Shown here: positions 41,064 through 49,786 of the stretch, piece by piece
How the letters are laid out: every line of letters starts with the position of its first letter
How positions within the stretch are numbered: position 1 is the stretch's first letter
Notes under the pieces: model-generated
What the model was told of the DNA's origin: nothing
The model's input: the letters and a program-made list of their open reading frames with translations, nothing else
Database searches by the model: none
Made by a program: the position numbers and the translations under genes
Sequence record: OL825705.1
DNA from: Escherichia phage vB_EcoM_DE7
Length of the DNA: 64,000 nt
Reading direction: 5' to 3' (one strand)

Positions 41064-42260
41064 ATGAACAAAGTACAGATTATTAAAAAGAATGGCTCAC
41101 TTGAAGAACCGGATATCAAAAAAGTTTTAACAGCAGTAACTAAGTCAGCTAACAGGGTTGGTTATAAAGAACTCCCACCAGATGTTATCCAAGCTCTTGA
41201 GTCAGCATTTATGAGGATTCTGGTAAAATCCACTAAGCAGAATAACTTGCTCATCTCGGTAAATGATATCCACAGTATCGTTGAAGGTGCTTTGGCAGAA
41301 GTCAATCACGAGATTTATGAGTCTTACTCAACATATAGAAATTACCGTAAAGAGGTTGCTCAAAATTGGGATGAACTTTACCAAAAGACCAGAGACACGC
41401 TCTTCTTAGGTGACCGTGAAAATGCTAACTTTGACAGTAGTTTAATTTCTACAAAAGGTTCAATTATTCGTGGTTATCTGACTAAAGAAATCTTTAAACA
41501 GTACCATTTAACACCAGAGGAACTTGAAGCCATTGAAAAAGGGTTTATCTACATCCATGACTTAAGAGACCTAATTTTTGGTGGTATTAACTGTTGCCTG
41601 TTCGACATTGGTAAAGTACTGAAAGGTGGCTTTGAAATGTCTGGCATCGAATACTGTGAACCTAAGTCTGTGCTGTCAGCCTTACAGGTTATTGGTGATG
41701 TAGTTCTTTCAGCAACTGCACAGCAATTTGGTGGCTTTACTTTAGCAGAGATTGATAAGGTGCTTGTACCGTATGCTAAGAAGTCTCTACGCTATCATGC
41801 TGAGAAAGCAGCATCTTATGGTATCCCTAAAGAACATTACCATAATTATGTCATGGAGCAGCTACAGATTGAATTAACTCAAGGTTTCCAGTCACTAGAG
41901 ATGAAGCTAAATACTGTACCTTGCAGCCGTGGTGATTTTGCATTCACAACTTTAACATTTGGTTTACTTGACTCAGATATGTCTAATGAAGACAACCGAC
42001 TACAATACATGATTGCAAACACCATTCTTGATGTTCGTATGAATGGACAAGGTAAGAGCAAGAAACCTGTTGTATTTCCTAAACTGGTTTATATCTATGA
42101 CCAGAAGAGACACGATGAGAATATCTGTCAAGGTCAACTGTACAGTAAAGCTATTGAGTGTTGCTCTAAAGCAATGTATCCAGATTTCTTAAGCGTCTCT
42201 GGTCATGGTGCTGTAGCAGAGGCTTTTGAGCGTTCTGGTAAGGTTATTTCACCGATGGGT
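41064..42260 (+). CDS. nrdD: anaerobic ribonucleotide reductase, exon 1
   Basis: N-terminal ATP-cone-like region; reading frame ends ...ISPMG then stop inside the intron. Confidence 0.85.
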
Positions 42261-42576
42261 TAACAAGCTCTATAGCTCATCTAAAACGTGCCTAAACAGG
42301 GAAACTCTACAGGTGTAGACAATCCTGTGCTAAATGATGTACGATGTAAGAAACTATATAACATAGAAGTATTACATGCCAAATAACCTCGAATATGAGT
42401 TTGAGTACATTTAAATGCCGAACGACTAACCGTGATGAATGTAGCGGTGTAGGGTCAAGCGACTCGAAATGGCACGCTACTTAGAAATAAGTAGAAGATA
42501 TAGTCTGGACTTACTGGCGACAGTAAGCAGCTTGAATAAAGCGGGGTAAGCGTAGCGAACTTACCTGAACAACAAG
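42261..42576 (+). other. group I intron (no ORF) in nrdD
   Basis: GUAGACAAUCCUGUGCUAAAU, GACUAACCG and AGAUAUAGUCUGGAC segments resemble the T4 td-type intron core as recalled; exon ends in U, intron ends in G; exons join in frame across PMG|CRAFL. Confidence 0.8.
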
Positions 42577-43524
42577 TGTAGAGCATTTTTATCACCATAT
42601 CATAACGAAGATGGTGAAGAATTTTATGTAGGTCGTGCTAACATTGGTGCTGTATCTTTGAACTTGCCAATGATTTACCAGTATTCTAAAGAGAATGGTT
42701 TAGATTTCTGGAAAGAGCTTGATAAGTACCTAGAGATGATTCGCAGTTTTCACAAGAAACGCTATGAAATGATTGCTAATATGCCAGCAAGTTCTAACCC
42801 TCTTGCATTCACACAAGGTGGTCTGTACAAAGGGACTAAGAAACCTACTGACAAGGTTGGTTGGGATATCGTGAAGTCCTTCACAGCCTCTTTTGGGGTT
42901 ACTGCACTTGATGAATTATCTGTTCTTGCTGAAGGTAAACGACTTCATGAAGTTGGAAGCTATAGTTTTGCATACGATGTTCTGGCATACATTAACATGA
43001 AAACTGAAGAGTTTAAGAACGAAGATGGCTTCTTGTATGCGGTATATGGCACTCCAGCAGAATCACTTTGTGGAACTCAGTTAAAACAGTTCAGAGATAT
43101 GTTTGGCGTTATTAAAGGTGTCTCTGACAAGGAATACTTTACAAACAGTTTCCATATGAATGTTGCAGCAAACATCTCACCATTTGAGAAGCAGGACTTA
43201 GAAGAACCATTCTTCCATATCTGTAGAGGTGGTAGAATCCAGTATGTAAGGGTAGCTAACCCAGAAAACTTACCAGCACTTAAAAGTTGTATTACAAGAG
43301 GCATGTTGAAAGGCTTTTATCAGGGGCTTAACTTTGACTTAGCAATCTGTGAACATTGTGGTAACAGACCAAAGGCTGATGTCGAAGAATGTGAAGTTTG
43401 CCATTCACATGATATCTCTGTGATTAACAGGGTGTGCGGGTACTTGTCATTCACAAAAATTAAAGGTCAGTCTCGAATGAATGACGCTAAGATGGCAGAA
43501 ATTAAGGATAGAGTCTCTATGTAA
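42577..43524 (+). CDS. nrdD: anaerobic ribonucleotide reductase, exon 2
   Basis: Starts CRAFLSPY; C-terminal Zn site CEHCGN ... CEVCHSHD and glycyl-radical motif RVCGYLS. Confidence 0.85.
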   Translation, partial: CRAFLSPYHNEDGEEFYVGRANIGAVSLNLPMIYQYSKENGLDFWKELDKYLEMIRSFHKKRYEMIANMPASSNPLAFTQGGLYKGTKKPTDKVGWDIVKSFTASFGVTALDELSVLAEGKRLHEVGSYSFAYDVLAYINMKTEEFKNEDGFLYAVYGTPAESLCGTQLKQFRDMFGVIKGVSDKEYFTNSFHMNVAANISPFEKQDLEEPFFHICRGGRIQYVRVANPENLPALKSCITRGMLKGFYQGLNFDLAICEHCGNRPKADVEECEVCHSHDISVINRVCGYLSFTKIKGQSRMNDAKMAEIKDRVSM

Positions 43525-44792: not shown

Positions 44793-44829
44793 ATCTCATC
44801 GTAAAATTGGCTACGGGAAAGGTGAGATA

Positions 44830-45132
44830 ATGATTATCTCTTTTAATAGTGCTTTATTAGGCACTTATAAGGTCAAGACCGAACTCCTTGATGAGTGGAA
44901 AAAGTATACAAACTCACTGTTCGGTAATGTTGGAATGGAAGCTTTAGCAGAGATTGAGAAGGCGGGAACATTCGAAGTTGTTGGTAAAGGCCACTTTACA
45001 ATGTTCTACAGAACAAACCTAAACGTTGGTGACAGTATTGTTGGTGTCACTGAAGAAGAACTTAAAACATTTTGTGAAAAGATTGAGAGAGATACGAAAT
45101 GGGAATCTGGAACAGTTTTAAATCAAAAATAA
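44830..45132 (+). CDS. hypothetical protein
   Basis: Track ORF 44674..45132 trimmed to internal ATG 44830 with SD GGGAAAGGTGAG; start uncertain. Confidence 0.3.
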   Translation: MIISFNSALLGTYKVKTELLDEWKKYTNSLFGNVGMEALAEIEKAGTFEVVGKGHFTMFYRTNLNVGDSIVGVTEEELKTFCEKIERDTKWESGTVLNQK

Positions 45133-45356
45133 AAGCAGCACTGGCATCACTAGGTATGCTCACTGGTGTTGACGTTACTCATCTCATGCAGAACTTCAAG
45201 ATGGATGAGAAGCTGGCTAATGAGATTATGAAAAGCATCTATGTAGGTCGTGGAAAAGGTGGTAAAAAACAAGCACATCGACCAACTGGTGCAGCAGCAA
45301 TTAAACGTGCAGCTAAAAAAGCTCGTAACCGTAAACGTAACAAGAAGGCTAAATAA
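45099..45356 (+). CDS. hypothetical protein with basic C-terminus
   Basis: 85 aa, C-terminal KRAAKKARNRKRNKKAK. Confidence 0.3.
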   Translation: MGIWNSFKSKIKAALASLGMLTGVDVTHLMQNFKMDEKLANEIMKSIYVGRGKGGKKQAHRPTGAAAIKRAAKKARNRKRNKKAK

Positions 45357-45358
45357 TC

Positions 45359-45679
45359 ATGAGCAAAGTTTATAACACTCGTAAATTACAGATTTTCGTA
45401 CTGTGCCAGTTTATGGCTAAAGAGTATAACTGCTACTATTGTGGTACAGGGTTCATTAGTGATAATGACGGCTCATATCTACCATTCAAAGAGGCTGTAA
45501 AACTCTTCAATGAAGAGAAAAGCTCTAAGAAAGATATTGAAAAGGTTAAGCTAACCTACAGCAAGAAAGATAAGAAGATTATCTGCCTAGATAACTTTGT
45601 AAAAGTTACTGGAGAAGCAAAAGAGTTTATGGATGAGAGTGAAATCTCATTCACAAGCATCTTGAAAGTAGCTCAGTAA
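45359..45679 (+). CDS. hypothetical protein
   Basis: 106-aa ORF followed by terminator. Confidence 0.35.
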   Translation: MSKVYNTRKLQIFVLCQFMAKEYNCYYCGTGFISDNDGSYLPFKEAVKLFNEEKSSKKDIEKVKLTYSKKDKKIICLDNFVKVTGEAKEFMDESEISFTSILKVAQ

Positions 45680-45730
45680 ACAGATACTATAAGGGAATTG
45701 TAAAGGTTCCCTTTTTATTTTGGAGATAAT

Positions 45731-46246
45731 ATGTATCTGTCAAATCTGAAACGTTCGGCTGCAATGTCAGTTCTAAGACTCAGCTTTGAGGAACGTCAAG
45801 AGTTCATTGACTCCCACCAATACGACCCTTCTAACTCAAATCACATGATTCTCTGGAATCGTGATAACTTCCGTGAAAGAGCACTTGTCCGTTATTACCC
45901 ACACTACACAATAGATAACCTGTATGAATGGTGTGTCGTGAAGAACACTATTGCAACACTGAACAATCTTTGCAGGTATACAGGTAAGCAAACATTCACA
46001 CTAGGCCACCATAAACCTGTTACAAAAGGTGGTGAGCATCACTGTGCGAACTGGTTTATCCAAACTAAAGCTGATAACCAGAAGCAAGGAGATAATCTTC
46101 TAAGCACTCCTAAGATGACCTATGAAGAGCAAGAGAAATATATCAAAAATAATATGCCAGATGTGCTTGACAACAACTATACAGATTTGGCAATATCTCT
46201 CCTGTTGAAGTTCGAGACAGTTTATAGGGCAACTTACAATGGCTAA
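45731..46246 (+). CDS. hypothetical protein (possible HNH-like motif)
   Basis: 171 aa; LGHHKPVTKGGEHHCANW loosely resembles an HNH core. Confidence 0.3.
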   Translation: MYLSNLKRSAAMSVLRLSFEERQEFIDSHQYDPSNSNHMILWNRDNFRERALVRYYPHYTIDNLYEWCVVKNTIATLNNLCRYTGKQTFTLGHHKPVTKGGEHHCANWFIQTKADNQKQGDNLLSTPKMTYEEQEKYIKNNMPDVLDNNYTDLAISLLLKFETVYRATYNG

Positions 46247-46517
46247 AGAGAAGTGGGAGATTTTACCACTAGTTAGTGAGTGCGGCAATGGTTGTGAAAT
46301 GTACATGATACGTGGTCATGTTCCAGAACCAATTGCACTTGAGATGATAAACAATTTTACAGATGGTTCTTACAAAGACTTAGGAGAACCAACTGTCAAG
46401 CAACAATGGGTTAAACCTGTACCAGACAGCACAGGTAACTGTAGTGTACTTTATCACGTTGTAGACCCTGCAAAATGCAAATCTGCAATGGCAGTAACAA
46501 ACGTAACTTTTGATTGA
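46239..46517 (+). CDS. hypothetical protein
   Basis: 92-aa ORF. Confidence 0.3.
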   Translation: MAKEKWEILPLVSECGNGCEMYMIRGHVPEPIALEMINNFTDGSYKDLGEPTVKQQWVKPVPDSTGNCSVLYHVVDPAKCKSAMAVTNVTFD

Positions 46518-47410
46518 GAGAGAAAACTATGAAAACATCTATCCGTGTTACAGTTCATTCACCAACTAAAGGAACTCATGAAGAAGAGTTTAACATCATC
46601 CAATTCCCTTCTGGTGAGATTGGTGGAAACTTTTCACCAGAGTTTGTTGATTTTACTGCTTATGCAGCATCATCTATCAACAATGTGGTTATGATTGTAA
46701 AAGGTTATGATAAAGATACATTGTTTGCTGTGGCACTTGCTAAAGAGGCGGTGGACAACTTAGTACCTCATAAGTTTGCTATGAAGACCATTATCTTTTA
46801 CTATTTGCCAAATGCACGTTATGACCGTCACATGTTTAAAGGTGATGCAGCAGCTTTGAAAGTGTTTGCACAACAGGTTAATGCAATGGGTTTTGATGCA
46901 GTCTGTGCAGTTGACCCTCACAGCTATGTACCAGAGAACCTATTTAACTGCTTCCAGAGTATTCCTCAAAAGGAAATTGCAGTCCACTATGCAAATGACC
47001 CACTGGTTGATTACTTAGTAGCCCCAGATGCAGGTGCTGCTAAGAAGATTGCAGAGACTGCTAAAGAGGTGGATAAACCATACATCACAATGTCTAAAGT
47101 GCGTAACCTCAAGACTGGTGAGATTACCGGTATGCGAATCCTTGATGATATTGATTTGACCGATAAAACCGTTATGATTCTCGACGATATCTGTGATGGT
47201 GGTCGGACCTTCATAGAAGCAGCTAAACATCTTCGTGAAGCAGGTGCAAAACGTGTGGAGCTTTATGTAACTCATGGCATTTTCTCTAAAGGTGTTGAAA
47301 ACCTTCTTGACAATGGCATTGACCACATCTACACTACAAACTCTTTAGGGGAAGCTAAAGACCGTGGCTTAGCACATTATGGTCAAGTTACTGTAGCAAA
47401 CCTTGATTAA
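46514..47410 (+). CDS. ribose-phosphate pyrophosphokinase (PRPP synthetase) family protein
   Basis: PRS-like motifs YLPNARYDR, VDPHS, APDAGAAKK and PRPP-binding loop VMILDDICDGGRT. Confidence 0.7.
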   Translation: MREKTMKTSIRVTVHSPTKGTHEEEFNIIQFPSGEIGGNFSPEFVDFTAYAASSINNVVMIVKGYDKDTLFAVALAKEAVDNLVPHKFAMKTIIFYYLPNARYDRHMFKGDAAALKVFAQQVNAMGFDAVCAVDPHSYVPENLFNCFQSIPQKEIAVHYANDPLVDYLVAPDAGAAKKIAETAKEVDKPYITMSKVRNLKTGEITGMRILDDIDLTDKTVMILDDICDGGRTFIEAAKHLREAGAKRVELYVTHGIFSKGVENLLDNGIDHIYTTNSLGEAKDRGLAHYGQVTVANLD

Positions 47411-47417
47411 AACTTTA

Positions 47418-47442
47418 TAGGGGCTTAAAAGCCCCATTTTGA
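47418..47442 (+). terminator. rho-independent terminator
   Basis: GGGGCTT/AAGCCCC hairpin followed by ATTTT. Confidence 0.45.
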
Positions 47443-49238
47443 GAGAGATTAAAAAGATGACTAAATCACTTTATGCAGTACCAGCAGGTTTAAACGCAGA
47501 TGCTTACAAGGCATCACATATATATCAGTATCCAGATGCTACACAGTATCTTATGTTGAACCTGACACCACGTAGTGACAAATGGTTTAACAGTCCTTTA
47601 GCCATTGACGGTGTAGTTGCTTTTGGTATTCAACGTTTTGTTAAAGATTACCTGATAGACCACTGGAACGCCACCTTTTTTGAACGTGACAAAAAAGAAG
47701 CAATTGACGAAGTCTTAGAAGTCATGAACGGTGTTCTGGGTAAAGATGCTATTGGTCGAGAACACTGGGAAGCACTACATGACTTAGGTTATCTACCAGT
47801 TGAAGTGTACGCTGTAGAAGAAGGCACAGTTGTACCTATGCGTGTACCAATGATTGTCTTCCAGAACACTGTTTCAGGTTTCCATTGGGTAGCTGGGTAT
47901 CTGGAAGATGCTTTCTCTGCTGAGATTTGGAAGGCTTGCACCATTGCAACTATTGCATTGCACTACAAACGTATCTGTAAGAAGTGGGCTGACCTTACTT
48001 GTGACAATGACTTACATTTGCCTTATCAGTGCCATGACTTTGCCATGCGTGGTATGTCTGGCTTTACTGATGACGCATTTAACGCTGTAGGCCACTTAAC
48101 CAGCTTTAAAGGAACTGACAGCTTCCCTGCTGTGTATACAGCTAAACGCATCTATGGACAGTCCTACCCAATCTCTGATATTGGTAGTTCTGTGCCAGCT
48201 ACTGAACACTCTGTAATGTGTGCAAACATTGCTTGGGAAGGTGGTAATGAGTTGATTGAAGAAGAAAGACGCTTTAAAGGTGAGTTACAAACCTTCCGTC
48301 GTTTCTTAACAGAAACTTACCCAACTGGTATTGCAAGTGTTGTTTCAGACACTTATAATTTCTGGAGAACTGTATCAGAAATCTTACCAGCACTTCGTAA
48401 AGAGATTATGGAACGTGACGGCAAACTGGTAATTCGTCCTGACTCTGGCGACCCTGTACATATTGTCACAGGTTATAAAGCAATCCACTTAGAGTGTGCT
48501 AAAAAAGCTTATTACGAACACCTAAGCAAGCTGGAAGCCAGCGACACAAAGTTGAATGCTGTTCTGAACATGAATCTTGAAGACATTCACTATATTATGG
48601 CTGGGTGGTTACGTACAGAAGGCTATGAAATGGTGGTTGACAGAGAAGACTTTGAAGTAGCTGATACAGTGCTTCTGAAAGATGCCTACATCAACGGCTC
48701 TGCAAACGTTGTAACACGTCCTGTAGCAGAGATTGATGGGGCTATTAAGACCCTGTATAACATCTTCGGAGGGACTATCAACTCTAAAGGTTTTAAAGTA
48801 CTGGATGAACACATTGGCCTTATCTATGGTGACTCTATCACGCTGGAACGTGCAAACGAAATCCTGAAGCGTCTGTATGAAATGGGTTTTGCAAGCTCTA
48901 ACGTAGTGTTTGGTGTAGGTTCTTACACTTACCAGTACATGACTCGTGACACCTTTGCATTTGCTGTCAAAGCAACTCTTGCAAGCATTGGTGGCAAAGA
49001 GATTATGCTTGCAAAAGACCCTAAAACAGATAGCGGTGTTAAGAAGTCTGCTTTTGGTGGTGTAGCACCTGTGTGGGATGGCGATAAGCTGAAAGCTGTA
49101 GATGGCTATGGATTCCAGAGCTTTGCAGATGTGCTTGAACATCCAGCTTGTGCTTTACGTTTAGTCTTTAGTGACTCTGAGCAGTTCGGTTACACAACTC
49201 TTGGTGATATTCGAAATAATATTGACAAGCAACTCTAA
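47439..49238 (+). CDS. nicotinamide phosphoribosyltransferase family protein (Nampt/NadV-like)
   Basis: N-terminal DAYKASHIYQYPD matches the Nampt substrate-binding signature (DSYKVTHYKQYPP in human NAMPT, from memory); 599 aa. Confidence 0.8.
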   Translation: MREIKKMTKSLYAVPAGLNADAYKASHIYQYPDATQYLMLNLTPRSDKWFNSPLAIDGVVAFGIQRFVKDYLIDHWNATFFERDKKEAIDEVLEVMNGVLGKDAIGREHWEALHDLGYLPVEVYAVEEGTVVPMRVPMIVFQNTVSGFHWVAGYLEDAFSAEIWKACTIATIALHYKRICKKWADLTCDNDLHLPYQCHDFAMRGMSGFTDDAFNAVGHLTSFKGTDSFPAVYTAKRIYGQSYPISDIGSSVPATEHSVMCANIAWEGGNELIEEERRFKGELQTFRRFLTETYPTGIASVVSDTYNFWRTVSEILPALRKEIMERDGKLVIRPDSGDPVHIVTGYKAIHLECAKKAYYEHLSKLEASDTKLNAVLNMNLEDIHYIMAGWLRTEGYEMVVDREDFEVADTVLLKDAYINGSANVVTRPVAEIDGAIKTLYNIFGGTINSKGFKVLDEHIGLIYGDSITLERANEILKRLYEMGFASSNVVFGVGSYTYQYMTRDTFAFAVKATLASIGGKEIMLAKDPKTDSGVKKSAFGGVAPVWDGDKLKAVDGYGFQSFADVLEHPACALRLVFSDSEQFGYTTLGDIRNNIDKQL

Positions 49239-49244
49239 AAGTAT

Positions 49245-49628
49245 ATGATAAGAGGCTCCTACGGGAGCCTTTTTAATCTTCTGGAGAAGATTATGAAAAT
49301 CAAAGAAATGAATATCAATATTGTCTTAGAAGAACGTTGGGAGAACATCAAGAAGCCTGAAAATGGTCATAAGTTCCTCAACAAAATCTTAGTAGCAGCT
49401 AAAGAAGAACTGACTGGCAAGGTTGCAGCAGCAATCACAATAAAGGTGTGTGTAAAAGGTCTTCCAGACAATCACCAATTTGCACTTGACGAGTTTAAAG
49501 AGAGCTTCTACAATCCAAACAAACAGATGCTTGAAAGTAACTTTGCAGTATCTACAAGTATCGTCCATGACAGAAGCTTTATCCTTTACAAGAATATGAG
49601 AGGTGAGTCATGCAAGCATATTGGATAG
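49245..49628 (+). CDS. hypothetical protein
   Basis: 127-aa ORF after terminator hairpin GGCTCC-TACG-GGAGCC. Confidence 0.35.
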   Translation: MIRGSYGSLFNLLEKIMKIKEMNINIVLEERWENIKKPENGHKFLNKILVAAKEELTGKVAAAITIKVCVKGLPDNHQFALDEFKESFYNPNKQMLESNFAVSTSIVHDRSFILYKNMRGESCKHIG

Positions 49629-49786
49629 AAATTTTCCTGTCACTTGGTAGTGTAGCAGTATTTGTTTACCTTCTTTGCAAGTACTATGCAGAACACAAAA
49701 AATGTGACTTCTGTAATGGAGAAGGTTATACAAGAGCAGGTTGTTGCCCTATGTGTGGCGGTTCTGGTAAAATGTTTAATAAGTAA
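49610..49786 (+). CDS. small membrane peptide with two CxxCxGxG zinc-finger motifs (not in ORF track)
   Basis: 58 codons: hydrophobic segment then CDFCNGEGY and CPMCGGSGK. Confidence 0.3.
   Translation: MQAYWIEIFLSLGSVAVFVYLLCKYYAEHKKCDFCNGEGYTRAGCCPMCGGSGKMFNK

What the first reader, a model, noticed from the sequence alone, without database searches (positions are those of the whole stretch)
46514..49238. Adjacent PRPP-synthetase-like and Nampt-like genes: candidate NAD+ salvage or reconstitution module
The 298-aa protein carries PRPP-synthetase motifs and the 599-aa protein carries the Nampt substrate-binding signature; they are adjacent and co-oriented. Phage PRS-like plus Nampt-like pairs have been described as NAD+ reconstitution pathways that counter NAD-depleting defence systems, the PRS homologue acting on ADP-ribose and the Nampt homologue rebuilding NAD+. 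The motifs alone cannot separate that from a classical PRPP/NMN salvage pair.
Basis: partly seen in the sequence, partly recalled or inferred. Interest (0 to 1): 0.6.

Follow-up and report, generated by a model that had tools for sequence, protein, structure and literature searches.

The report
Known phage NAD+ rebuilding operon (NARP1)
These two adjacent genes are the FelixO1-type phage copy of NARP1, a two-enzyme pathway already shown to rebuild NAD+ from ADP-ribose and nicotinamide when a bacterial defence destroys NAD+, so the finding is real but already explained.

Summary
Two adjacent, co-oriented genes encode a PRPP-synthetase-like protein and a Nampt-like protein. The likely ATG starts are 46529 and 47457, giving 293 and 593 aa.

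The window is a Felixounavirus (FelixO1-like phage), about 96% identical in DNA to several sequenced phages. It is collinear with Escherichia phage Bas63 (JohannRWettstein). Bas63 genes 79-80 are the operon in which NARP1 (Adps + Namat) was discovered by deletion and metabolomics.

The window proteins are 81% (Adps) and 96% (Namat) identical to Bas63 gp79 and gp80.
- The Namat carries the published ADPR-PP selectivity signature: GSYTYQYMTRD, and a Lys-Trp clamp loop as in Bas63.
- Its model matches the Namat crystal structure best.
- The Adps keeps the catalytic residues of the solved ICP1 Adps and lacks the Prs C-terminal helices.
- It fails every equivalog-level Prs model.

No Macro (Adpp) or RyR (RyDEP) accessory gene flanks the pair, so this is the plain two-gene NARP1. 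Enzymology was not done on this allele.

Verdict: already known, low interest.

Minor unexplained points are a confidently folded, orphan 88-residue insertion in Namat and a mosaic 5' part of adps. Relatives in Klebsiella sit next to the ADP-ribose-sensing regulator NrtR.

The parts
46529..47410 (+). adps: ADP-ribose pyrophosphate synthetase (Prs-like), 293 aa. The mechanical ORF begins at TTG 46514.
   Evidence: ORF. ATG with a GAGAGAG Shine-Dalgarno-like run 6 nt upstream. 81% identical, without gaps, to Bas63 gp79. ICP1 Adps residues R87, H121, D161, K185, D212, D213, C215, D216 and F221 are conserved as R97, H131, D167, K190, D219, D220, C222, D223 and F228. The Prs C-terminal tail is absent.
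47420..47435 (+). Conserved intergenic stem-loop GGGGCT-TAAA-AGCCCC followed by ATTTTG, between adps and namat. Role unknown; possibly a weak terminator or attenuator, or an mRNA-stabilising element.
   Evidence: Sequence. RNA fold -12.6 kcal/mol, z = -2.5. The same stem is present in Bas63 with one loop change. The terminator scan did not call it.
47457..49238 (+). namat: nicotinamide ADP-ribose transferase (Nampt-like), 593 aa. The mechanical ORF begins at TTG 47439.
   Evidence: ORF, ATG. 96% identical, without gaps, to Bas63 gp80. AF2 model pLDDT 92.8. The best solved-structure match is SPbetaL1 Namat 9w5x/9w5w, E 3.5e-52, TM 0.94 on the target. 17 of 20 NAD+-contact residues of SPbetaL1 Namat are identical.
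47565..47585 (+). Namat selectivity-clamp loop (SCL), TPRSDKW. Lys42 is at the 'third' position and Trp43 is the stacking residue.
   Evidence: Aligns to SPbetaL1 R40. The segment is identical in Bas63. The rule comes from PMC12774641.
48228..48281 (+). Namat insertion 1 (about 14 extra residues, IAWE...LIEEERRFKG) relative to SPbetaL1 Namat.
   Evidence: Gaps in the HMMER alignment to 9w5x. Length of this site varies by lineage from 8 to 46 residues.
48474..48737 (+). Namat insertion 2: an 88-residue alpha/beta subdomain (residues about 340-427) absent from SPbetaL1, mycobacteriophage and ICP1 Namat, from bacterial homologues and from Nampt.
48918..48950 (+). Namat selectivity-clamp helix (SCH) motif GSYTYQYMTRD.
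   Evidence: [quoted passage not shown] Xanthomonas Nampt has GGALLQKVDRD and HdNadV has GAQTYQRNTRD at the same place.

Best explanation
The two genes are the NARP1 (NAD+ reconstitution pathway 1) operon of a FelixO1-like phage. When a host defence such as SIR2-HerA, type I Thoeris, DSR2 or a SEFIR system cleaves NAD+ into ADP-ribose and nicotinamide, the first enzyme (Adps, a remodelled PRPP-synthetase fold) transfers the beta-gamma pyrophosphate of ATP onto the 1'' hydroxyl of ADP-ribose, giving ADPR-pyrophosphate. The second enzyme (Namat, a Nampt fold with an added adenine clamp) displaces that pyrophosphate with nicotinamide and regenerates NAD+ directly, with no NMN intermediate and no host salvage enzymes. 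Shown here: orthology, synteny, conservation of the catalytic and specificity residues, and the fold. Inferred from published work on orthologues (Bas63 genetics and metabolomics; SPbetaL1 and ICP1 enzymology and structures): the chemistry and the counter-defence role.
For: 1. The window is a Felixounavirus. 228 phage records cover at least 80% of 46000-49700, nearly all of them at 90-97% identity, and a 25-kb stretch is about 96% identical to several sequenced phages.
2. It is collinear with Bas63 (MZ501086) from nrdG to rIIA.
3. Adps is 81% and Namat 96% identical to Bas63 gp79 and gp80 over the full length, without gaps.
4. Deleting Bas63 genes 79-80 sensitises the phage about 20-fold to SIR2-HerA and abolishes NAD+ recovery. 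ADPR-PP appears only when both the operon and the defence are present. Counter-defence persists in a pncC nadR double-deletion host, so the NMN route is not needed.
5. SPbetaL1 Adps gave no measurable product in the control assay for Prs activity (the figure legend names ribose-5-phosphate + ATP as the substrates) but made ADPR-PP from ADPR + ATP. SPbetaL1 Namat makes only NAD+ when given PRPP and ADPR-PP together.
6. The Namat-specific SCH motif and the SCL Lys-Trp are present. 17 of 20 NAD+-contact residues are identical and the other three are conservative changes.
7. The best structural match is the Namat crystal structure, ahead of HdNadV and human NAMPT.
8. The Adps catalytic Lys (K190, equivalent to ICP1 K185) and the acceptor and donor residues are conserved. 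The Prs alpha11-alpha12 tail is missing.
9. The protein scores 45-107 bits against Prs models (equivalog and narrower subfamily) whose cut-offs are 296-536 bits. It passes only the broad subfamily model.
Against: No enzyme assay or phage genetics exists for this exact allele. The first 60 or so residues of Adps are much more divergent from Bas63 than the rest (nucleotide identity 65-69% over 46500-46800, against 92-97% in the flanks). Two ICP1 adenine- or ATP-capping aromatics do not align to aromatics in my MAFFT alignment: F92 aligns to M102 (with F103 next to it) and F223 to E230. ICP1 F18 is misaligned; by eye it corresponds to F26 in FPSGE. The Bas63 proteins themselves were never purified; the in-vitro chemistry comes from SPbetaL1, ICP1 and other homologues that are 32-47% identical. 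Namat homologues retain PRPP-to-NMN activity in vitro, so some classical salvage flux cannot be excluded.
Confidence: 0.93

Rival explanations
1. Classical salvage. The first enzyme is a true PRPP synthetase and the second a true Nampt. Together they make NMN, which host NadR or PncC converts to NAD+ to boost nucleotide or NAD supply during infection.
For: Pfam, NCBIfam, PHROG and nearly all GenBank annotations name the pair this way. Namat homologues can make NMN from PRPP in vitro.
Against: The Bas63 orthologues work in a pncC nadR double-deletion host and produce ADPR-PP in vivo. SPbetaL1 Adps showed no Prs activity in vitro. The window protein fails all equivalog-level Prs models and lacks the Prs C-terminal module. 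The Nampt-like protein has the Namat adenine clamp, not the Nampt or NadV sequence. No NMN adenylyltransferase is annotated in Bas63 37-87 kb.
Confidence: 0.04
2. Dual use. The pair is NARP1, but Namat also draws on host PRPP to make NMN when no ADPR-PP is present, so the operon gives a low constitutive NAD+ boost as well as counter-defence. This does not exclude the best explanation.
For: SPbetaL1 Namat has about half the NMN-forming activity of human Nampt when ADPR-PP is absent, and clamp mutants keep that activity.
Against: Bas63 infection of defence-free cells gave no excess NAD+ (Discussion text), unlike NARP2 phages.
Confidence: 0.15
3. Extended NARP1. The operon works with an accessory enzyme, either a Macro-domain ADPR-1''-phosphate phosphatase (Adpp, giving NARP1-AP) or a RyR-domain cADPR glycosidase (RyDEP), encoded by one of the small flanking ORFs.
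For: About 15% of NARP1 operons carry a Macro-domain gene within two genes of the core pair, and some carry RyDEP. Four small ORFs of unknown function flank the pair.
Against: None of the flanking ORFs (45099-46517 and 49245-49786) matches a Macro or RyR Pfam family even at E <= 1. They fall in PHROGs of unknown function. Only the 171-aa ORF has a homologue next to NARP1 in one other genus, Erwinia phage phiEa104.
Confidence: 0.03

Closest known systems
NARP1 of Escherichia phage Bas63 / JohannRWettstein (genes bas63_0079-0080; Osterman et al., bioRxiv 10.1101/2024.02.11.579819)
   Same: Same virus genus and the same genomic position (between nrdG and rIIA). Same gene order and lengths (293 and 593 aa). 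81% and 96% aa identity. Identical SCL and SCH clamp sequences, the same two Namat insertions and the same intergenic hairpin.
   Different: The 5' 300 nt of adps is a divergent allele (65-69% nt identity). Bas63 has one extra small gene (bas63_0081, about 350 nt) directly after namat that the window lacks.
NARP1 of Bacillus phage SPbetaL1 (the biochemically characterised Adps and Namat; Namat crystal structures 9w5w and 9w5x)
   Same: Same fold (Foldseek E 3.5e-52, TM 0.94 on the target). 17 of 20 NAD+-contact residues identical. Same SCH consensus.
   Different: About 38% identity. SPbetaL1 Namat is 491 aa and lacks both insertions. Its clamp loop uses Arg40 to stack on adenine where the window has Lys42-Trp43.
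Adps of Vibrio phage ICP1 (structures in apo, ADPR/ATP and ADPR-PP/AMP states; PMC13586617)
   Same: Catalytic Lys, the acceptor Asp-Asp, His, the RF-loop Arg and the Cys-Asp of the PP loop are conserved. The Prs C-terminal helices are absent in both.
   Different: 32% identity. The PP loop is CDGGRT in the window and CDGAAS in ICP1. One of the two Phe residues that cap the ATP adenine is Glu in the window. The N-terminal domain aligns poorly.
NARP2 (Vibrio phage KVP40 NadV + NatV) and bacterial NadV/Nampt (e.g. HdNadV 9ke8, Xanthomonas Nampt 7yqo)
   Same: The same Nampt fold and catalytic core.
   Different: NadV and Nampt lack the aromatic residues at SCH positions 3 and 7 (GAQTYQRNTRD, GGALLQKVDRD). 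They prefer PRPP and are paired with an NMN adenylyltransferase rather than a Prs-like gene.
NrtR-controlled 'prs-nadV' operons of gamma-proteobacteria (Rodionov et al. 2008, PMC2330246) and bacterial NARP1 (Paenibacillus foliorum, PMC12774641)
   Same: The same two-gene architecture. The Klebsiella michiganensis pair has a Namat-type SCH (GSFTYQYNTRD). Its Prs-like protein is 49% identical to the window Adps over 188 aa, against 28% to E. coli Prs.
   Different: It is chromosomal and lies next to the ADP-ribose-sensing repressor NrtR. Its Namat is 496 aa without the insertions. It is presumably housekeeping ADPR recycling rather than counter-defence.

Membership tests
NARP1 (Adps + Namat) | A Prs-like gene immediately followed by a co-oriented Nampt-like gene in a phage genome | tested here: met
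   The gap between stop and start is 46 nt, with no intervening ORF.
NARP1 (Adps + Namat) | Orthology to an operon with a demonstrated counter-defence phenotype | tested here: met
   81% and 96% aa identity to Bas63 gp79 and gp80, without gaps, in a syntenic position.
NARP1 (Adps + Namat) | [quoted passage not shown] | tested here: met
   The window has GSYTYQYMTRD. Phi3 is Met, where Asn or Val is more usual.
NARP1 (Adps + Namat) | Namat SCL loop supplying an adenine-stacking residue (Arg at the third position, or Lys/Tyr followed by the stacking residue) | tested here: met
   TPRSDKW: K42 aligns to SPbetaL1 R40 and is followed by W43, identical to Bas63. The stacking itself is inferred, not modelled with ligand.
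NARP1 (Adps + Namat) | Nampt-like catalytic core of Namat (D13, Y15, F189, R192, D215, catalytic His, R306, D308, GD(A/S) loop, R399) | tested here: met
   All are conserved (D15, Y17, F195, R198, D221, H251, R327, D329, G458-D459-S460, R497), and invariant in the 48-sequence alignment.
NARP1 (Adps + Namat) | Adps catalytic Lys on the beta-hairpin and the acceptor and donor residues of ICP1 Adps | tested here: met
   K190, R97, H131, D167, D219, D220, C222, D223 and F228 are conserved. F92 aligns to M102 and F223 to E230.
NARP1 (Adps + Namat) | Loss of the Prs C-terminal alpha11-alpha12 filament and allosteric module | tested here: met
   E. coli Prs extends 19 residues beyond the C-terminus of the window, Bas63 and ICP1 proteins.
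NARP1 (Adps + Namat) | Enzymology: ADPR + ATP gives ADPR-PP, and ADPR-PP + nicotinamide gives NAD+ | not testable with these tools
   Shown for the SPbetaL1, ICP1, DyoEdafos and P. foliorum homologues, not for this protein.
NARP1 (Adps + Namat) | Rescue of phage from NAD+-depleting defence | not testable with these tools
   Shown for the Bas63 orthologue.
Canonical PRPP synthetase (Prs/PrsA) | Score above the curated cut-off of an equivalog-level Prs model; DTGGT ribose-5-phosphate loop; C-terminal helices | tested here: not met
   The best Prs model below the broad subfamily level scores 107 bits against a cut-off of 296, and the others 45-92 bits against 297-536. The loop is CDGGRT, where E. 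coli has IDTGGT. The C-terminal tail is absent.
NARP2 / classical NadV-type Nampt | Nampt without the adenine clamp, partnered with an NMN adenylyltransferase and not with a Prs-like gene | tested here: not met
   The clamp is present and the partner is Prs-like. Absence of an Nmnat gene was checked only through the Bas63 annotation of 37-87 kb, not by a profile scan of every window ORF.
NARP1-AP (with Adpp phosphatase) | A Macro-domain gene (PF14519, PF01661 or PF20016) within two genes of the core pair | tested here: not met
   No Macro hit at E <= 1 in the six flanking ORFs. Sequence profiles only; no structure-based check.
NARP1 with RyDEP | A RyR-domain gene inside or next to the operon | tested here: not met
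   No RyR-domain hit in the flanking ORFs.

The most novel reading that the evidence does not exclude
Probability: 0.2. Interest if true: 0.35.

Novelty: already known. Interest (0 to 1): 0.13.

Why it matters
It matters mainly for annotation. Almost every GenBank record of this phage group, and Pfam, NCBIfam and PHROGs, still call the pair 'ribose-phosphate pyrophosphokinase' and 'nicotinamide phosphoribosyltransferase'. That implies PRPP/NMN salvage. The correct reading is Adps and Namat, a counter-defence module. It predicts that this phage can infect hosts armed with NAD+-depleting systems that yield ADP-ribose (SIR2-HerA, type I Thoeris, DSR2, SEFIR). It also predicts sensitivity to aRES, which yields ADPR-1''-phosphate, because no Adpp phosphatase is present. 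That is useful when choosing FelixO1-like phages for therapy or biocontrol. It adds no new biology beyond the published pathway.

Tried and rejected
- The PDB sequence search with Adps found only canonical Prs structures (best 4twb, 2.7e-19). The ICP1 Adps structures are not in that copy, so I did the residue mapping on the ICP1 gene fetched from GenBank.
- Finding Bas63 took accession guesses: MZ501111, MZ501080, MZ501084 and MZ501085 were wrong, and MZ501086 was right.
I replaced it with a local MAFFT identity profile (after a file-path error).
- The flanking ORFs were scanned for Macro and RyR domains and nothing was found. A tblastn of the six flanking ORFs against NARP1 loci of six other phages and one bacterium found only the 171-aa ORF, in Erwinia phage phiEa104. 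There is therefore no evidence of a conserved third NARP1 gene.
- The promoter and terminator scans gave counts not clearly above the shuffles (30 against 20.2 +/- 4.1, and 5 against 5.3), so I do not rely on them for operon boundaries.
- I did not scan every window ORF for an NMN adenylyltransferase.
Full report
**Observation.** The window holds two adjacent + strand ORFs at the stated coordinates: 46514-47410 (298 aa) and 47439-49238 (599 aa). Both mechanical ORFs begin at TTG. ATG codons at 46529 and 47457, each preceded by a GAGAGAG run, give 293 and 593 aa, the lengths annotated for the orthologues in phage Bas63.

The family assignments are not chance.
- Protein 1 matches Pribosyltran and Pribosyl_synth, TIGR01251 (5e-36) and PHROG 619 (3.5e-99).
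- Protein 2 matches NAPRTase and NAMPT_N, NF006629 (2e-141) and PHROG 448 (1.6e-202).

**Source.** The region is 90-97% identical in DNA to more than 200 FelixO1-like myophages of Escherichia, Salmonella, Shigella and Citrobacter. A 25-kb stretch around it is about 96% identical to several sequenced phages. The window is therefore part of a Felixounavirus genome.

It is collinear with Escherichia phage JohannRWettstein (Bas63, MZ501086). The order is nrdG, five small ORFs, the Prs-like gene, the Nampt-like gene, small ORFs, then rIIA.

**What it is.** Bas63 genes 79-80 are the operon in which Osterman et al. discovered NAD+ reconstitution pathway 1.
- Deleting them makes Bas63 about 20-fold more sensitive to SIR2-HerA and prevents NAD+ recovery.
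- ADPR-pyrophosphate (m/z 720.010) appears only in infected cells that have both the operon and the defence.
- The effect persists in a pncC nadR double-deletion host, which rules out an NMN route.

With the SPbetaL1 homologues, the Prs-like enzyme showed no Prs activity in vitro but pyrophosphorylated ADPR. The Nampt-like enzyme made only NAD+ when given PRPP and ADPR-PP together.

The window proteins are 81% (Adps) and 96% (Namat) identical to Bas63 gp79 and gp80 over their full lengths, without gaps.

**Independent sequence and structure tests: Namat.** The Namat structure paper (PMC12774641) defines a selectivity clamp that separates Namat from Nampt. [quoted passage not shown] The other is a loop giving a further stacking residue.
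- The window has GSYTYQYMTRD.
- At the same place Xanthomonas Nampt has GGALLQKVDRD and Haemophilus NadV has GAQTYQRNTRD.
- The loop reads TPRSDKW. Lys42 aligns to SPbetaL1 Arg40 and Trp43 follows it, which is the arrangement described for Bas63.

Of the 20 SPbetaL1 residues that contact NAD+, 17 are identical. The rest are conservative: R40K, S190A, A362S and F392Y.

An AlphaFold2 model built on 48 homologues has pLDDT 92.8. Its best matches among solved structures are the Namat crystals 9w5x and 9w5w (E 3.5e-52, TM 0.94 on the target). HdNadV and human NAMPT follow.

**Independent sequence and structure tests: Adps.** I aligned the window protein with Bas63 gp79, the structurally solved ICP1 Adps and E. 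coli Prs. The following ICP1 residues are conserved:
- catalytic Lys185 (window K190);
- Arg87, His121 and Asp161;
- Asp212 and Asp213;
- Cys215 and Asp216 of the PP loop;
- Phe221.

Two aromatic caps differ: F92 aligns to M102 (with F103 adjacent) and F223 to E230. The N-terminal Phe is misaligned by MAFFT, but by eye it corresponds to F26 in FPSGE.

The C-terminal alpha11-alpha12 segment that canonical Prs uses for filament formation and allostery is missing, as reported for Adps homologues.

The protein passes only the broad TIGR01251 subfamily model. Against the equivalog and narrower subfamily Prs models it scores 45-107 bits, where the cut-offs are 296-536 bits.

**Surroundings.** None of the six small flanking ORFs matches a Macro domain (Adpp of NARP1-AP) or a RyR domain (RyDEP), the two known accessory genes of NARP1 operons. 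This is the plain two-gene version. By the published work it should not counter aRES-type defence, which produces ADPR-1''-phosphate.

A 6-bp GC-rich hairpin followed by ATTTTG lies between the two genes and is conserved in Bas63. Its role is unknown. The consensus promoter and terminator scans were not clearly above background and I do not build on them.

**Mechanism.**
- Shown here: identity, synteny, conserved residues and the fold.
- Inferred from published work on orthologues: Adps transfers the beta-gamma pyrophosphate of ATP to the 1'' hydroxyl of ADP-ribose. [quoted passage not shown] The pathway runs only when a defence has produced ADP-ribose and nicotinamide.

I put 0.93 on this reading. 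The classical PRPP/NMN salvage reading gets about 0.04. A side contribution of NMN synthesis from host PRPP is possible in vitro, but Bas63 does not raise NAD+ in defence-free cells.

**Differences from the known example, and things left unexplained.**

1. *Mosaic adps.* The first 300 nt of adps are only 65-69% identical to Bas63, while both flanks are 92-97% identical. Across the phage collection the Adps protein falls into identity bands of 95-99% (47 records), 90-95% (107), 80-90% (23) and 60-80% (75).

2. *A missing gene.* Bas63 has an extra gene of about 350 nt directly after namat that the window lacks.

3. *Two insertions in Namat.* Felixounavirus Namat is about 100 residues longer than SPbetaL1 Namat because of insertions of about 14 and about 72 extra residues.
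   - The larger one (residues about 340-427) folds confidently, both in the full model and alone (pLDDT 90.6).
   - Its length varies between lineages of phages of Gram-negative hosts. It is absent from phages of Gram-positive hosts, from ICP1 and from bacterial homologues.
   - It is the most variable part of the protein relative to Bas63.
   - The Namat structure paper does not mention it.

**Side observation outside the window.** The nearest insertion-free relatives are chromosomal genes of Klebsiella, Cronobacter, Kosakonia and related genera, and they carry a Namat-type clamp motif.

In Klebsiella michiganensis the gene follows a Prs-like gene that is 49% identical to the window Adps over 188 aa, against 28% to E. 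coli Prs. The pair is divergently transcribed from an NrtR regulator.

Rodionov et al. 2008 showed that NrtR is released from the 'prs-nadV' operator by ADP-ribose, and they called the dedicated prs paralogue unexplained. An Adps-Namat reading would explain it: ADP-ribose would induce its own recycling to NAD+. I found no paper in the searchable library that links NrtR to NARP1.

**Verdict.** It is the already described NARP1 operon in the same phage genus as the founding example, so novelty is 'already known' and interest is low.

Noticed in passing
window 42191-42527 (+): A group I intron (Rfam RF00028, 55.6 bits against a gathering score of 50, full-length model match) interrupts the anaerobic ribonucleotide reductase gene nrdD (ORFs 41064-42263 and 42658-43524). 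Unlike Bas63, whose nrdD is annotated as two joined pieces (an intron is inferred, not annotated) with a homing-endonuclease ORF between them, the interruption here is too short to hold one.
   Followed up: partly
[not shown]
   Followed up: yes
window 46500-46800 (+): The 5' third of adps is a mosaic allele, 65-69% nt identical to Bas63 while the flanks are 92-97%. Adps proteins of related phages fall into several discrete identity bands. This suggests recombination or diversifying selection on the N-terminal domain.
   Followed up: partly
window 49239-49292, compared with L005:18408-18752: Bas63 carries an extra small gene (bas63_0081, 345 nt, hypothetical) immediately downstream of namat that is absent from the window. 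The window ORF 49245-49628 corresponds to bas63_0082, and its PHROG match starts at residue 17.
   Followed up: no
window 47420-47435 (+): A conserved GC-rich hairpin (GGGGCT-TAAA-AGCCCC, then ATTTTG) lies between adps and namat and is also present in Bas63. It could attenuate transcription or stabilise the upstream mRNA. The terminator scan did not call it.
   Followed up: partly
L013:3211-6491 (Klebsiella michiganensis chromosome): A bacterial Adps-like + Namat-like pair (Namat-type clamp motif GSFTYQYNTRD) sits divergently next to NrtR, the ADP-ribose-responsive repressor. This matches the 'prs-nadV' NrtR regulon that Rodionov et al. 2008 found puzzling. It suggests ADP-ribose-induced ADPR-to-NAD+ recycling as a bacterial housekeeping pathway.
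   Followed up: partly
window 44800-45250 (+): The segment just downstream of nrdG is only 25-61% identical to Bas63, with indels, while the neighbouring DNA is above 90% identical. It is a replaced or highly divergent small-gene cassette.
   Followed up: no
window 45731-46246 (+): The 171-aa ORF two genes upstream of adps (PHROG 3500, weak HNH-endonuclease-like similarity, E 1.8e-06) is the only flanking ORF with a homologue beside NARP1 in another genus. In Erwinia phage phiEa104 the match is split over two annotated genes.
   Followed up: partly
window 1-64000: ARAGORN finds no tRNA genes in the window. The large tRNA array of Felixounaviruses (Bas63 81.9-86.9 kb) lies outside the sampled 64 kb.
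   Followed up: no
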